Shown here in pieces: positions 14,159 to 51,543 of a stretch of DNA of 64,000 bases. Under the pieces are notes generated by a model, which made no database searches, was not told the DNA's origin, and saw only the letters and a list, made by a program, of their open reading frames with translations. Where the stretch lies: the NCBI RefSeq assembly GCF_000372725.1, contig NW_005201551.1, forward strand, positions 156,520-220,519. Reading direction: 5' to 3'. Positions within the stretch are counted from its first letter, which is position 1; each line of letters begins with the position of its first letter. Source of the DNA: Emiliania huxleyi CCMP1516 (lineage: Eukaryota). The position numbers and the translations under genes are program-made.

Positions 14159-17529
<3,371 letters not shown>

Positions 17530-17629: not shown

Positions 17630-18893
17630 GAGAAGGTCAGGTGAACTTCTCCACACACACAGAAGGTGTGGTGGGGCAGGGCCAGGCTAGTCCCTCGCGT
17701 CTCCACGTCTAGACGACACAGCGGGCTCCTCGCCGCCAAACTAGCTGTGAACAGCGTCTCTACACACCTCTAGCTGTGAACAAGTGTGCCGCACCTTCTC
17801 GCCGCCAAACTAGCTGTGAACAGCGTCTCTTCACACCTCTAGCTGTGAACAGGTGTGCCGCACCTCCTCGCCGCCAAACTAGCTGTGAACAGCGTCTCTT
17901 CACACACCTAGCTGTGAACAGGTGTGCCGCACCTCCTCGCCGCCAAAGACCCACGAGAGGAACTGGGCGCCTAGATCTCGCGTCATCTCGCGTCATCTCG
18001 CGTCATCTCGCGTCATCTCGCGTCATCTCGTCCGCGAATCGCAGAGAGGGACTGCGCGCAGTAGACGCCCGTCTCGGCGAGGGCGGAGCAGGAGCCGGCG
18101 CCTAACCTCGGGGATACTCTCGGGTATCATCTCGGGTCTAGTCTCGGCGAGGGCGGAGCAGGAGCCGGCGCCGTCGTTCTGGCAAAAGGAGACGTGGGCA
18201 GACGTCACGTCTCCGATGGCGCCTGACGACGGGGCTCGGAGGAGTCTCGGAGGTGTGTCGGAGGAGTCTCGGAGGAGTGTCGGAGGTGTCTCGGAGGTGT
18301 GTCGGAGGTGTGTCGGAGTTGTGTCGGAGGTGTGTCGGAGGTGTCTCGGAGGAGTGTCGGAGGAGTGTGTCGGAGGTGTGTCGGAGGTATGTCGGAATTG
18401 GCTCGGGAGCGTCTAGGAGGGCGCCGGAGGAGAGCAGCTCGCGCAGCGCCCGCATCGCCGGGAAGAAGCGGCTCCACACGCCGTGCAGGAAGAAGAGCCC
18501 GCGCTCCCGCGCGAGCGCGAGCACCTCCGCCGCCTCTGCCGCCGTCGGCGCCATGCTCTTCTCGCAGAGAACCGCCTTGCCCGCACGCAGGCAGAGCAGC
18601 GAGTCGGAGACGTGGCGCGTCGACGGCGTCGCGACGTACACCACGTCGACGGCGGGGTCGGCAACCAGCGCCTCGTACGAGCCGTGCGCACACGCGCCCA
18701 CTAGCCCGAGCTCCGCCGCAAACGCCGCCGCGCGATCCCCGCTCCGCGAGCCAACGGCGACGACTTCGGCGTCGCCTCGCATGGAGGTGAGGACGCGGCC
18801 AAAGTCGGAGGCGATGCTGCCCGTGCCGAGAATGCCCCAGCGGACCGGACGCCGCTCCTCTGCCACAACAGACACGAGAAAGAGCGCGAACAT
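17630..18893 (-). CDS. Gfo/Idh/MocA family oxidoreductase (dihydrodiol dehydrogenase-like), multi-exon, 3' end lost in a gap
   Basis: 'VRWGILGTGSIA', 'HGSYEALVADPAVDVVYVATP', 'GKAVLCEK' and 'WSRFFPA'. Introns at 18223-18424 and 18102-18171. Confidence 0.88.
17731..17947. repeat. Tandem repeat, 69-bp period, about 3 units, intronic
   Basis: 'cgccgccaaa' recurs at 17731, 17800, 17869 and 17938. Confidence 0.92.
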
Positions 18894-45957: not shown

Positions 45958-46729
45958 ATCGTTGCCGACGTGTCGCATCTTTGCCGGCAGAGGCGCGGGC
46001 GGCTGCACTGTGGGGGGGGTACCGAGCAGTGCACGGCCGCTCCCCTGCTGTGATACACGAGACCCAGGTCCACGCACCCTCCATTTGCATAACCCGCGCC
46101 CCAAAACATCAAGACATGCCAGCCCCCTGCTCTCCACGGTGGTCATTGACACACACGTCACATGGTCACCCCCGCCCTAGCGATATGTCCACCGGGCGCC
46201 GCTCCAACAGCACATCGAGCCGCCCGCCGCCCGCCCCGCCAGTGCTCGCGCTCACCTCGCAGACGCGCGCGGCGACCCTCCGCCCTCGCTGCCCTCCCGC
46301 TGCGAGTCCTGCAGCAGCGCCGTCCCCTGAGGAAAGGAAGGCACGGTGAGGCAAGGTGAGGGAAGGGAAGGTGAGGCAAGGCAAGGGAAGCTTCTCCACA
46401 CACACGAGGTGGTGGGGCAAGCGCGGCATTGGAAGTGCAAGGCCCGGTGCGCGTGGGTGGGCGGTGTGAGCGGTGTGAGCGGTGTGCGAGTGAGTGATTG
46501 TCTCTGCGTCTGTGTGCTGTGTGCCTCGCCGCCCTCCTCGTCCTCCTCCGATGGAACCTCGGTGTACGAAGGGCCAAACAGCGGCAGCCGAGACCACTGG
46601 CAGAGCAGCGCCTAAAAACGAGTCAACGCGGCCTTACGGGACATGGATCAGCGGCAGCCGAGACCACTCGCAGAGCAGCGCCGCGCACGCGCAGTCGACG
46701 GCCGCGCCGCACGCGCCACGCCGCCGCAC

Positions 46730-49700
46730 CTAGTTAAATTTAATCCGCGATTCGCCGCGCCGAACTCTGAACTGGCCGCACGCGCCGCGCCGCCGCCGCA
46801 CCCACGCCGAAGTCTCGTCGACGACGAGGCAGAGGCAGACGGCGGAGACGATCGCGAGGCAGCCGCCTGATATGGGGAGATGTGGGGAGATGCGGGGAGA
46901 TGCGGGGAGGTATGGGGAGGTATGGGGAGAGATGAGCTGGCCGCTCTCTGGGGATTCGGCATCTGGAGACGTGGGGAGATATGGGGAGGTATGGGGAGGT
47001 ATGGGGAGATGTGGGGAGGTATGGGGAGATATGGGGAGGTATGGGGAGGTATGGGGAGATGTGGGGAGGTATGGGGAGATATGGGGAGGTATGGGGAGAT
47101 ATGGGGAGATGTGGGGAGACGTGGGGAGATATGGGGAGGTATGGGGAGGGATGCAGATTCGTCATCTACACAAGCGCCGGTGGAGACCATCAACGTCTCC
47201 ATCCCCGCCTCCTCGAGCAGCCACCCGCCAACCACAGGCCCAAAGACCTACACGTATGAGTCGCTCCTCGCTGGAACCAGCTATGAATCAGCGGCCAGCC
47301 GCCCGCCGCCGGCCCGAAGACCTGCCCGAACCGGTCGATGGAGCCGGCCAGGCCCTGCATCACCCCTTGCTCCACCGGCACGTGCCTGCGGGAGGTTGCG
47401 GGAGATTGCGGGAGATTGCGGGAGGTTGCGGGAGGTTGCGGGAGGTTGCGGGAGGTTGCGGGAGATTGCGGGAGGTTGCGGGAGGTTGCGGGAGGTTGCG
47501 GGAGGTTGCGGGAGGTTGCGGGAGATTGCGGGAGATGTGGCCGGGGGGTTTTGTATTTGCCTCCGCCCACTAGCTCCCGGCTGTCTCTCGGCGGCATCTC
47601 GGCGGCATCTGGAGCATCTCGGCTGCATCTCAGCTGCATCTCGGCTGCCTCCCGGCTGCCTCTCGGCTGCCTCCCAGCTGCTTCCCGGCTGTGTCTCTCG
47701 GCTGCCTCTCGGCTGCATCTCGGCTGCATCTCGTCTGCCTCTCGGCTGCCTCTCGTCTGCATCTCGGCTGCATCTCGGCTGCATCTCGGCTGCATCTCGG
47801 CTGCATCTCGGCTGCATCTCGTCTGCATCTCGGCTGCATCTCACGAGAAGAGCGTCGAGATGCACGGCACGGCCAGCCCGTACCCCAGCGAGATGAGTCC
47901 GAGGCAGGGGACGAGGGAGGCGACCTAATTAATTAACTAGGCGCCCCCTCTTAATTCATTAGATGAGTCCGAGGCAGGGGACGAGGGAGGCGACCTAATT
48001 AATTAATTCGGCGCCCCCTCTTAATTCATTAGATGAGTCCGAGGCAGGGGACGAGGGAGGCGACCTAATTAATTAATTAGGCGCCCCCTCTTAATTCATT
48101 AGATGAGTCCGAGGCAGGGGACGAGGGAGGCGACCTAATTAATTAACTAGGCGCCCCCTCTTAATTCATTAGATGAGTCCGAGGCAGGGGACGAGGGATG
48201 CGACCTAATTAATTAATTAGGCGCCCCCTCTTAATTCATTAGATGAGTCCGAGGCAGGGGACGAGGGATGCGACCTAATGAATTAATTAGGCGCCCCCTC
48301 TTAATTCATTAGATGAGTCCGAGGCAGGGGACGAGGGAGGCGACCTAATCAATTAATTCGGCGCCCCCTCTTAATTCATTAGTTTGGCTGAGGCAGGGGA
48401 CGAGGGATGCGACCGAGGCGACGGCCGCAAGGCCCGCGTAGCCGAGCGATGTGCATGCCATGGCCAGCACGAGCGTGCGCTGCTCGCCCAGGGACCCGTT
48501 GATGACGCGCACGAGCACGCCCTGCACGAACATGCCTCCCACGCCCATCGCAGAGACGGCGAACCCAACCTGAGAGAGGGGTGTGTGGGGGGAGAGACGG
48601 GAGATATGGAGAGACGTGGCTCCCACGCCCCATCGCAGAGACGGCGAACCCAACCTGAGAGAGGGGTGTGTGGGGGGAGAGAGACGGGAGAGATGGAGAG
48701 ACATGGCTCCCACGCCCCATCGCAGAGACCGGCGAACCCAACCTGAGCGACGCGGGCGCCCCAACTGATTCATCCTTCACCCCCCCCACCCCACCCACCC
48801 ACACCCACACCTCGCAAAGACCATCTAGGCCTCGAGATAGGGGGAGATAGGGGGAGATAGGGGGAGATAGGGGGGAGATAGGGGGAGATAGGGGGAGATA
48901 GGGGGAGATAGGGGGGAGATGGGGGGAGATGGGGGGAGAGAGGGGGAGAGAGGGGGAGATAGGGGGAGAGAGGGGCACCTCCTTTGGCCCAAAGTCGAGC
49001 GCCTCCTCGCACAGGTACGGGAAGTTGGACCTAAAAAGAAGTCTACGATGCCGACACAATTCTTTTCTAGGTAAAGCACAGGTACGGGAAGTTGGACTTG
49101 TACGCCGCGAAGGCGAAGCGGAAGAAGAAGTTGAGCGCGAGCAGCGGCACCACGTTGAACTTTGCGAGGTAGCTTAGCCTGCGCGCTGAACACGCCGACA
49201 TGAGGGCGGGAAGACTTCTCGTCTACCTTGCCCAGAGCGCGCACACTAGCGCCCGCGCGCTGAGTACGCCGACATGAGGGCGGGAAAACGGTACTTGTGC
49301 AGCGTCTTCAGAGCACCGCGTGAATACGGGGGGGGGGGGGGGGGGCGACTACAGTTGAATACGGCTGAATACGGCCGAGTACGGCGGAGTGCGTGTCCTC
49401 TCGAGCGCTGGTTGGAGCACAAGAACACGTCTTCCGCTTCTAGGTGGTACGCGCAGCAGCCACAGGCTGCGCGCGCCGCGGCCACACGGCCCGCAGTTCT
49501 CGAGCACCGACGAGCCTTCGTCAAGCAGACACCCGGGGTCGGGGCGGGAGATGCCATCTCGCGCTGTGTGCTCAGATCTCCCCACACCTCCCCCCATCTC
49601 CCCCCATCTCCCCAGATCTCCCCCGATCTGGCGCAGCGTGCTCGCAGCACCGTGTGGAGACGAGGGGTGGGAGGACGGTGAGTACACTCTTGAGTACGGC

Positions 49701-50049
49701 CGAGTAGCGGCGGAGTGCGCGTGCCCTCTGGAGCGCTGGTTGGGAGACATGAATGCGTGCTCCGCCGCGAGATATGGGGAGATACGGGGAGACCTGGGGA
49801 GATATGTTTCGCTTCTAGGCCGACGATCCTCCGCCGGACGCGAGATATGGGGAGATATGGGGAGATATGGCGAGATCTGGCGAGATATGGGGAGATCTGG
49901 GGAGATATGGGGAGATCTAGGGCCGACGATCCTCCGCCGGACGCGACCTCGACGCGAACGTACTTGACGCCGTGGTCGTACTTGTGGCCGCCGGGTCGAT
50001 GCGCAACGCCAGTGCCTCCTCCTCCTCCACCACCACCACCACCGCCGCC

Positions 50050-50096
<47 letters not shown>

Positions 50097-51543
50097 TGCC
50101 TCCGCCACCTTTGCCGCCTCCGCCGCCGCCGCTTCCGCCCTCGCCCGTCGACCGCTCCATCTGCACTGGGGGCGTGGGGCTGGCTGCCGAGGGCTGCCTG
50201 GAGAGGTTTGCGGAAGACGACTGCCGCGAGAGGCGAGAGTCGATCAGCCTGTTCACAGCGGGAGGTGTGAAGAGCCGCCGTTCACACCTCACCACCGAGT
50301 CGGAGCTGCCGAGGCACTTCTCGTCCGGCTGCCAGAGCGCGCACACTAGAGCCCCGGAGATGAAGATTGCGCAAGCGACCAGCGCGCACACGCGCTTGCC
50401 GCCGAGCGCCGTCGCGCCTAGCGGCCGGGGGAGGGGTAGCTGACCTTTGGCCGTCGCGAGGCACCAGCGGCCTGCTCTTTTCACGCGCATCTACGCTCTT
50501 GGCGCTGCGCTACGCGTGTTGCGTGCGCAGCGGTGCGGCAGTCAGTCTTGGCTGCAGCGCAGCGGACCTCGGCTGCATCCCGCGCCTTGCAGCAGCGCCG
50601 GCGCAAACTCCGAGACATCTCCCCATATCTCCCCATCTCTCCCCATATCCCGCGCCTTGCAGCAGCGCCGGCGCAAACTCCGAGACGGCGCCGCCAATGA
50701 GAGGGCCGAGGATGAGAGCGCCTGCGGGCGTGGCGTCAGGGTTAGGGCTGGGGTTAGGGTTAGGGTCAGGGTTAGGGTTAGGGTTAGGGTTAGGGTCAGG
50801 ATTAGGGGTAGGCTTAGGGTTGGGCTTAGGGTCAGGGTCAGGGTCAGGGCCAGGGTAGGGTCTGGGAAGGGTTAGGGATAGGGTAGGGTCTGGGATAGGG
50901 TTAGGGTTAGGGTAGGGTCAGGGTCAGGGTCAGGGTAGGGTCTGGGATAGGGTTAGGGATAGAGCGCCGTTGAGGGTGACACCCATCAGCCCAAAGGTGC
51001 CTAAGGCGGACGCGCACGGGCATGCGTCAGCCTCAGCGCGTCGGTGAGGCGACCATCATGCGGCAGCTTGCTGCCCGTCCGCTTGTCCTTACTGGTAGTG
51101 TCAGCAAAGTACGCGCGGAACAGGGCGATCTGGAAGCCGGATCCGGTGATGACGCGCGCGGCGAGCATCATCGGGTAGGAGGAGGAGAGGCCGAGCAGCA
51201 GGCAGCCCGCTGCAGACACCAGCAGCGACACGAAGATGACGTTCCGCCGGCCGAGCGAGTCGGAGAGCGCGCCGAGCAGCGGCGAGAGGATCGTCTGGCT
51301 CATCCAGGTGGCGGACTGGAGGACGCCGTAGGCGGAGCGGGAGTAGCCCATCTCGCGCACTAGGAAGGGAAGCACCGGCACCAGCACCGTCTGGCCCAGC
51401 TGCGCCAGCAGGATGATCATGTACGGCCCGCACATGAACGTCGCCGGCCCGCAGGCGCCGGGGTGCCAGCCCTTGGCGATGCCCATCGGCAGGTGGATGG
51501 TGACGGGCACCCATATCTCCTCGGCGCCGCCGCCGGCCGCCAT
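46730..51543 (-). CDS. Major facilitator superfamily transporter (TetA/DHA1-like) with many repeat-filled introns
   Basis: 'SPLLGALSDSLGRRNV' (MFS motif A), 'RAYFADTT', 'ILGPLIGG', 'NFFFRFAFAAYKSNF' and 'EQGVMQGLAGSIDRFGQVFGP'. Exact 3' end uncertain. Confidence 0.85.
47892..48414. repeat. Intronic tandem array, 70-bp period, 7 units (exon copy + TTAA-rich spacer)
   Basis: 'agatgagtccgaggcagggg' recurs at 47891, 47961, 48031, 48101, 48171, 48241 and 48311. Confidence 0.97.
50735..50960 (+). repeat. Interstitial telomere-like (TTAGGG/TCAGGG)n tract inside an MFS intron
   Basis: Degenerate hexamer repeats gggtta/gggtca. Confidence 0.92.

What the first reader, a model, noticed from the sequence alone, without database searches (positions are those of the whole stretch)
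50722..50967. Telomeric repeats as the filler of a direct-repeat-bounded intron
Seen: on the coding strand the intron starts G|GCGCTCT, runs directly into degenerate (CCCTAA/CCCTGA)n and ends CAG|GCGCTCT. Splicing gives 'GVTLNGALILGPLIGG'. Established: telomerase can add repeats at double-strand breaks. Inference: this intron may be a healed break. It hints that the other satellite fillers were also made by templated repeat synthesis.
Basis: partly seen in the sequence, partly recalled or inferred. Interest (0 to 1): 0.7.

Follow-up and report, generated by a model that had tools for sequence, protein, structure and literature searches.

The report
Telomere-repeat intron in a haptophyte alga
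A transporter gene of a marine haptophyte alga has a 246-base intron, spliced out in RNA, that is made almost entirely of telomere-like repeats set between two copies of a short piece of the gene; it likely arose as a patched DNA break, one of many repeat-filled introns in these algae, with the repeats more likely copied from elsewhere than written on the spot by telomerase.

Summary
Window 50722-50967 (minus strand) is a 246-nt GC-AG intron of a haptophyte MFS-transporter gene. RNA contigs skip exactly its length. 222 nt are 88% like (TTAGGG)n. The junction repeat is 8 bp exact, 13 bp with one gap, beyond a permuted null. A healed break is plausible. Telomerase as the direct writer is less so: the G-strand starts with 13 non-telomeric bases that supply the AG acceptor, has no in-register seed, and the gene's other duplication-bounded introns carry fillers telomerase cannot make. 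The feature is one of a class: 6 of 15 introns in this gene have exact junction repeats of 7 bp or more, and all 10 complete introns of a Phaeocystis-like orthologue locus end in C-strand telomere-type repeats. Best reading (0.5): a staggered break filled by a copied repeat array carrying its own acceptor. I found no paper describing this; this scan noted look-alikes on other DNA.

The parts
50722..50967 (-). Intron 2 of the MFS gene: 246 nt, GC donor, CAG acceptor, phase 1
   Evidence: Sequence; RNA contigs skip exactly this length; the only GY-AG placement consistent with the joint
50957..50968 (-). Donor-side copy of the duplicated exon segment; supplies the GC donor; its last two C's are shared with the repeat register
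50710..50722 (-). Acceptor-side copy (start of exon 3 plus the G of AG); 8 bp exact and 12 of 13 with one gap against the donor-side copy
50736..50958 (+). Degenerate telomere-type tract, G-strand on +, C-strand on the coding strand; 14 TTAGGG, 8 TCAGGG, other variants; a 27-bp variant block occurs twice
50723..50735 (-). 13-nt non-telomeric linker carrying the CAG acceptor; no other close copy in the window, no Rfam match
50735..50745 (-). Last two CTRAY branch-point-like motifs (24 and 18 nt from the 3' end), both downstream of the last decoy AG (28 nt from the 3' end); use as branch point is inferred
50968..51000 (-). Exon 2 (33 nt)
   Evidence: RNA joint 50997-51072 and piece arithmetic
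50656..50721 (-). Exon 3 (66 nt)
46252..51543 (-). Host gene: MFS_1 transporter, 16 exons, 607-aa open frame after removing 15 introns; closest named relatives are Phaeocystis, Prymnesium and Diacronema proteins
50249..50290 (-). 3' end of intron 4: a ~40-bp module ending in AG, with 5 further copies elsewhere in the window (comparison case for copied filler)
49031..49097 (-). Intron 7: 67 nt with a perfect 22-bp junction duplication and non-telomeric filler, at a position shared with the Phaeocystis-like orthologue (comparison case)

Best explanation
This is a real spliced intron, almost wholly telomere-like repeat, that likely arose when a staggered break in an exon was repaired by copying in the 3' end of an already degenerate CCCTAA-type array, probably another intron's end. 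Shown: splicing, the 8/13-bp duplication, the filler, and absence of an intron at this site in orthologues. Inferred steps: (1) a staggered cut leaves about 13-nt 3' overhangs; (2) the antisense 3' end primes synthesis on a DNA or RNA template that begins at an AG, so the filler's AG lands next to the downstream copy; (3) the new strand rejoins through a 2-nt GG/CC microhomology and gap filling duplicates the overhang; (4) the upstream copy starts with GC, which these algae accept as a donor, and the C-strand provides CTAAC/CTGAC branch-like motifs and a pyrimidine-rich end, so the insert is spliceable at once and the protein is unchanged; (5) slippage later amplified variant units. Telomerase may be the ultimate source of such arrays, but likely not of this copy.
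For: RNA: 4 of 4 RNA runs laid (3 studies) fit removal of 246 nt: X11 and X13 by piece arithmetic, X16 by depth arithmetic, X12 by record length. Junction repeat beyond the null. Empty site: 14 of 18 related loci read straight through the site, 6 of them clearly genomic, including the intron-rich sister-clade locus L005. The AG is not in the duplicated segment (the exon ends ACG) and a perfect CCCTAA array has no G, so the acceptor must have come with the filler. The same architecture occurs with non-telomeric fillers: 6 of 15 introns have exact repeats of 7 bp or more, and in all 6 the repeat lies mostly downstream of the splice point. A shared ~40-bp module ends intron 4 and recurs 5 more times, each followed by GC or GT (GY frequency 0.17), once inside a ~27-bp duplication. 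In L005, 10 of 10 complete introns have C-strand units and 0 G-strand units in their last 60 nt, and 6 of 10 have junction duplications scoring 8 or more against a null maximum of 8.5 over 90 pairs. GC-AG introns are 56% of curated junctions in E. huxleyi (PMC4028052 passages).
Against: No template was found: the acceptor-bearing linker has no close second copy in the window, and no genome was available to search. No empty allele within the species was seen: 2 of 4 DNA runs show the intron at both ends, 2 are uninformative at this site, and L001 has the intron. The empty-site orthologues are distant (49-58% protein identity), and some have no introns at all. Filler divergence (about 12%) is compatible with one indel in the 13-bp duplication, so it cannot exclude a once-perfect telomerase product. 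Three of the first 8 window introns share positions with L005, so junction duplications need not mark intron birth. 10 of 15 introns have no CTRAY motif, so the branch-point benefit is not required. The downstream bias of the repeats could come from selection, and unverified repeats elsewhere in the window have AG|GY in their middle.
Confidence: 0.5

Rival explanations
1. Telomerase itself extended the antisense 3' overhang at a staggered break. End-joining added or later mutation made the 13-nt linker with the AG, and the array then decayed.
For: The tract is 88% like (TTAGGG)n and meets the short-ITS cut-off of under 1 mismatch per unit (PMC7215372 passages). Haptophyte telomerase makes TTAGGG (PMC3622300). 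ITS insertions come with target duplications (3 of 66 simple duplications) and random additions (12 of 66) in horse. In L005, two G-strand tracts start just after an exon copy, as telomerase extension of the other overhang predicts. Earlier scan notes report short, purer cases in other genomes (unchecked).
Against: There are 0 in-register bases at the G-strand start, against 1 or more in 31 of 40 horse loci. The first added bases would include C's, which the template cannot write. The insert would be unspliceable until an AG arose at exactly this spot. It is 1 of 15 introns in the gene, and the rest share the architecture with non-telomeric fillers.
Confidence: 0.25
2. The intron was born earlier, as a short duplication-made intron or an ordinary one, and the telomere-like tract was inserted or grew inside it later by a secondary break or by slippage.
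For: Secondary duplication-plus-satellite inserts inside existing introns are visible (window intron 3; L005 1746-1972). Three intron positions are shared with L005 and one also with L008. The 27-bp variant block is repeated, and L001 differs in unit pattern after 89 nt, so slippage is active. Interstitial telomeric tracts are pervasive in another coccolithophore (PMC13518057).
Against: The tract fills the intron almost edge to edge (222 of 246 nt) and merges directly into the donor-side exon copy. The position is empty in L005 and in 5 other genomic orthologues. The sister protein P0007 reads through the site and seems to come from genomic DNA (inferred from its ends; contig not seen).
Confidence: 0.2
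3. The intron is a copy of an introner (an intron-generating transposon) whose body happens to be telomere-like.
For: Introners that carry the 3' splice site and take the 5' site from their target duplication are known (bioRxiv 2022.06.06.494994 passages), and the intron-4 module behaves like a dispersed family.
Against: Duplication lengths vary from 7 to over 30 bp among the gene's introns instead of being fixed. There is no second copy of this intron's non-repeat end in the window, and no terminal inverted repeat is apparent by eye.
Confidence: 0.05

Closest known systems
Intron gain during staggered double-strand-break repair (Daphnia neointrons; PMC4202315 and PMC3443670, passages read)
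   Same: New intron bounded by a short direct repeat of exon sequence (4-12 bp in Daphnia), with later internal duplications and introns at shared positions
   Different: The filler here is a telomere-type array on a fixed strand, the duplicated copy gives a GC donor while the filler gives the AG, and duplications reach 22 to over 30 bp. 'Telomer' does not occur in the main text of either paper.
Short interstitial telomeric sequences inserted at repaired breaks in mammals (PMC7215372, passages read)
   Same: More than 4 TTAGGG units with under 1 mismatch per unit, at an internal site, with a target duplication and an empty orthologous site
   Different: In that study no human ITS lay in an exon and 31% lay inside existing introns. 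Here the ITS plus its duplication is the intron itself. The in-register seed typical of those ITSs is absent.
Introners that carry the 3' splice site and recruit the 5' site from the TSD (Symbiodinium type; bioRxiv 2022.06.06.494994, passages read)
   Same: Same division of labour between insert and duplication
   Different: No fixed TSD length, no terminal inverted repeats seen, simple-repeat body, no family copy found
GC-AG-rich introns and pervasive ITSs of haptophytes (PMC4028052, PMC13518057; passages read)
   Same: GC donor; interstitial TTAGGG tracts in a repeat-dense, intron-rich haptophyte genome
   Different: In the passages seen, neither paper links the tracts to introns, to junction duplications or to intron origin

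Membership tests
Spliceosomal (GC-AG) intron | Removed from RNA at GC...AG boundaries, restoring the frame | tested here: met
Spliceosomal (GC-AG) intron | Lariat formed at a branch-point adenosine | not testable with these tools
   Candidate CTRAY motifs at -24 and -18; only contigs, no lariat reads
Short interstitial telomeric sequence | At least 4 units of the species' telomere repeat with under 1 mismatch per unit, at an internal site | tested here: met
   About 37 units, 0.86 edits per unit; TTAGGG in haptophytes; the species itself was not named by any search
Short interstitial telomeric sequence | Empty orthologous site showing one-step insertion | tested here: inconclusive
   Empty in 6 genomic but distant orthologues; no empty allele in close relatives seen
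Telomerase-written ITS | Bases at the break in register with the repeat at the G-strand start | tested here: not met
   0 in-register bases; 13 non-telomeric nt first. The feature is statistical (31 of 40 in horse), so one miss lowers but does not exclude it
Telomerase-written ITS | Captured telomerase-RNA sequence beside the repeats (TERC-ITS) | tested here: inconclusive
   No Rfam match in 50300-51200; no haptophyte telomerase RNA was at hand
Intron gained by staggered DSB repair | Locus-specific direct repeat at the junctions above background | tested here: met
   8 bp exact against a null maximum of 6 in 210 pairs
Intron gained by staggered DSB repair | Recent gain shown by presence/absence among close relatives | tested here: inconclusive
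   Sister protein P0007 reads through, but its contig could not be fetched; distant loci are empty
Intron gained by tandem duplication of an AG|GY site | Both splice sites come from the duplicated AG|GY | tested here: not met
   The upstream exon ends ACG, and only 1 base is shared left of the splice point
Introner | Multiple end-to-end similar introns at unrelated sites | tested here: inconclusive
   None in the 64-kb window; no genome held
Introner | Fixed-length TSD and/or terminal inverted repeats | tested here: not met
   Junction repeats vary widely among the gene's introns; inverted ends judged by eye only

The most novel reading that the evidence does not exclude
Haptophytes run a standing intron factory: staggered breaks in exons are patched by reverse transcription or templated copying of telomere-type and other repeat modules that end in AG, and the C-rich telomere strand doubles as a ready-made branch point and pyrimidine tract. 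Telomere repeats would then be a main raw material of new introns (nearly all introns of the Phaeocystis-like locus), a route to mass intron gain that needs no transposon.
Probability: 0.35. Interest if true: 0.8.

Novelty: new variant of a known kind. Interest (0 to 1): 0.52.

Why it matters
Where new introns come from is a long-standing question, and break repair is supported by few clear cases. Here an RNA-verified intron consists of little more than a target duplication and a telomere-type tract. The same design fills much of the gene, and all 10 complete introns in a Phaeocystis-like locus. Haptophyte genomes and many strains are already sequenced, so strand bias, seed register, duplication length and presence/absence can be counted over thousands of sites. 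That would directly test telomerase against templated copying as a source of introns. It also explains why interstitial telomere tracts hamper assembly and gene prediction in these algae.

Tried and rejected
Scans for telomere-type introns in other collections gave nothing usable. Viral contigs gave 1 locus (L019, not examined) and 0 loci. Genome contigs gave 2 loci: L021 looks like a chimeric contig end, and L020 was selected by the pattern and so was not counted for strand bias. The idea that the intron's 3' end is a decayed copy of the upstream exon end was rejected: 28% of 139 control 16-mers scored as well. The argument that the filler is too degenerate for the age of the duplication was rejected as too weak. 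A whole-window scan for direct repeats (80 pairs) could not be tied to splice sites without RNA and showed no clear side bias. The organism could not be named by look-up: 0 of 10 window ORFs were found exactly, and names were absent or withheld. 'Likely Emiliania/Gephyrocapsa huxleyi' rests on my recall of its GC content and 10-11-bp intron satellites and comes from no call. DNA runs X7 and X3 are uninformative at the target because the tool masks the repeat. The protein tree is the quick version; the careful search did not finish. PMC2784329 and PMC12130899 passages had nothing on this. The Nature 2013 E. huxleyi genome paper is not held; it and its supplement may describe repeat-filled introns. 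Three supplementary files of PMC12480563 were not searched.

Full report
1. Observation. Tandem Repeats Finder reports a 6-bp array of 38 copies there. The tract (50736-50958) has 14 perfect TTAGGG and 8 TCAGGG hexamers plus other variants, a longest perfect run of 4 units, and 193 of 220 identities to an ideal array. It holds 14 of the window's 17 TTAGGG/CCCTAA hexamers, and simulations put at most 3 in any 246 nt (30 runs). The junction repeat is 8 bp exact and 12 of 13 bp with one gap; its last two bases overlap the repeat register at the donor side.

2. Host gene and organism. Exon 1 matches Pfam MFS_1 (E 8e-20). The top 32 of 57 homologues are eukaryote-type proteins; those with names are Phaeocystis, Prymnesium and Diacronema. 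In a quick tree of 33 proteins, the window's protein is sister to P0007, and the pair groups with the Phaeocystis clade (support 100). The organism is therefore a haptophyte. That it is Emiliania/Gephyrocapsa huxleyi is my recall-based inference, which no call confirmed. TTAGGG is the telomere repeat in the haptophytes examined: telomerase assay in Pavlova (PMC3622300), and assemblies of G. huxleyi, P. globosa and C. leptoporus (passages read).

3. It is spliced. I laid 8 of the 17 listed runs, all as contigs. The tool masks 50733-50964, so the joint is read from arithmetic. The polyA metatranscriptome X13 has one contig with 101 letters between 50412 and 51072; 101 is the spliced length and 347 the retained one. 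X11 has 33 letters between 50718 and 51072, as expected. X16's depth in the two flanking bins equals one contig covering 50710-50718 and 50965-50985. X12's record length matches X11's. That is 4 of 4 RNA runs from 3 studies. DNA runs X6 and X10 have contigs entering the intron at both ends, and their depths leave no room for a joined contig; X7 and X3 cannot be read at this site. Locus L001, the same species, carries the first 94 nt of the intron and is identical to the window for 89 of them. No empty allele was seen within the species.

4. It is not an old conserved intron. Of 18 related loci, L001 has the intron, L009 and L010 enter a different long intron before the site, L018 is too short, and 14 read straight through. 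Six of the 14 are clearly genomic: L005, L008, L016 and L017 have introns elsewhere in the gene, and L002 and L015 lie on 11.8-kb and 46.8-kb contigs. The other 8 may be transcripts. These relatives are distant, and L002 and L015 have no introns in this gene, so loss is not excluded; L005, intron-rich and in the sister clade, is the best witness. P0007 reads through the site, and its ends suggest a genomic contig (it starts where L009 has an acceptor), but this is inference.

5. It is one of a class. RNA joints and pieces define 15 introns, whose removal gives a 607-aa open frame; 12 come from listed joints or piece arithmetic placed exactly, and 3 from pieces plus homology. Exact junction repeats are 4, 8, 7, 1, 3, 2, 22, 4, 6, 1, 7, 4, 12, 13 and 3 bp; 0 of 210 mismatched pairs reach 7. 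In all 6 introns with 7 bp or more, the intron's 5' end copies the start of the next exon and at most 2 bases are shared upstream. In 10 of 15 introns the upstream exon does not end in AG, so the acceptor belongs to the filler. Fillers are decamer and 11-mer satellites, AT-rich blocks and shared modules. The module ending intron 4 recurs 5 more times, each followed by GC or GT, once inside a ~27-bp duplication. Only the target is telomeric. In L005, whose spliced protein is 98.7% identical over 306 aa to a Phaeocystis globosa protein, telomere-type filler is the rule: 43 CCCTAA against 6 TTAGGG on the coding strand. All 10 complete introns (8 checked by translation, 2 in the neighbouring gene inferred from sequence) have C-strand and no G-strand units in their last 60 nt, and 6 of 10 have duplications scoring 8 or more (null maximum 8.5 of 90). 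G-strand tracts there occur only in the 5' part of introns, followed by a second exon copy.

6. Mechanism. A staggered cut with 3' overhangs, extension from the antisense end, rejoining by microhomology and gap filling gives exactly copy-filler-copy (established geometry for staggered-break insertions; PMC4202315 and PMC7215372 passages). The open question is what wrote the filler. Telomerase would start at the acceptor side. There the strand ends in C's, which are out of register, and continues with 13 non-telomeric bases that create the CAG. A pure CCCTAA insert here would have no AG and in-frame stops. A copied 3' end of an existing repeat-filled intron solves this in one step and also accounts for the non-telomeric fillers of the neighbouring introns. 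Whether the template is DNA or RNA (excised intron, LINE-type reverse transcription) I cannot tell; LINEs are reported as abundant in Phaeocystis. The C-strand bias has a natural selective reading: CCCTAAC and CCCTGAC contain the CTRAY branch consensus (established knowledge), and the last two such motifs lie beyond the last decoy AG. Against this reading: no template was found; 10 of 15 introns lack CTRAY; three intron positions are shared with L005, one of them with a perfect 22-bp duplication, so either parallel gain occurred or duplications can be rewritten at old introns; and slippage has clearly reshaped the tract. My odds: copied filler 0.5, telomerase 0.25, later invasion of an older intron 0.2, introner 0.05.

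7. Comparison and novelty. It works like break-repair intron gain (Daphnia) and like mammalian short ITSs. It meets the sequence definition of a short ITS, fails the in-register test for telomerase, fails the AG|GY-duplication model, and shows no introner family or fixed TSD. Ten full-text searches and passages of 12 papers (supplement searches) found GC-AG prevalence, pervasive ITSs and abundant simple repeats reported for haptophytes. They found no description of introns built from a duplication plus telomere repeats. I read passages only, no whole paper. The library lacks most subscription journals and the E. huxleyi genome paper, so absence from print is not established. This scan has noted similar telomere-repeat and satellite-filled introns in other genomes; these are unchecked AI notes and are not counted as support.

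8. Verdict. A real, RNA-verified intron; a new variant of a known kind. The value lies less in this single locus than in the class it belongs to, which is countable in existing haptophyte genomes. Interest 0.52.

Noticed in passing
window 46325-46524: A contig of the DNA-type run X7 joins across the gene's last intron (depth 166, 28 letters on the short side) while X3 keeps it: possibly an intron presence/absence polymorphism among strains, or RNA in that run.
   Followed up: no
window 50249-50290, 15309-15348, 17306-17343, 17746-17921: A ~40-bp module ending in AG and followed by GC/GT; contig depth over it is hundreds of times the flanks, suggesting a high-copy intron-end family, introner-like.
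   Followed up: partly
window 47925-48413: Intron 9 is a 7.5-copy tandem array of a 70-bp unit made of a 24-bp exon copy plus an AT-rich block ending TAG; similar AT-rich blocks end other candidate introns (46730, 16275-16425, 14760-14845).
   Followed up: partly
window 49516-49931: Intron 5 has a GA donor (RNA joint), inside a near-perfect junction duplication with one mismatch at the second donor base.
   Followed up: partly
window 49633-49765 and 49299-49437: Introns 5 and 6 share a 142-nt segment at 72% identity.
   Followed up: no
L005:1-3435: Phaeocystis-like locus in which every intron of two genes is filled with degenerate CCCTAA-type hexamers; three positions are shared with the window's gene.
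   Followed up: yes
L009:6665-7220: An intron two codons upstream of the window's intron 1 that begins with decayed copies of the upstream exon, where the 96%-identical P0007 reads through: another apparently recent gain.
   Followed up: no
L020:880-965: A nearly pure CCCTAA tract between a GT donor-like and a CAG|GC acceptor-like site, in an otherwise uninterrupted-looking gene on a contig binned in an archaeal MAG (likely a mis-binned eukaryotic or algal-virus contig).
   Followed up: no
L021:1-60: Telomere-type repeats fused to a bacterial cyclophilin-like gene at the contig start; looks like a chimeric assembly join.
   Followed up: no
window 50027-50145: A long GGC/GGT run lies inside exon 5 and encodes a poly-glycine loop absent from the aligned homologues.
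   Followed up: no
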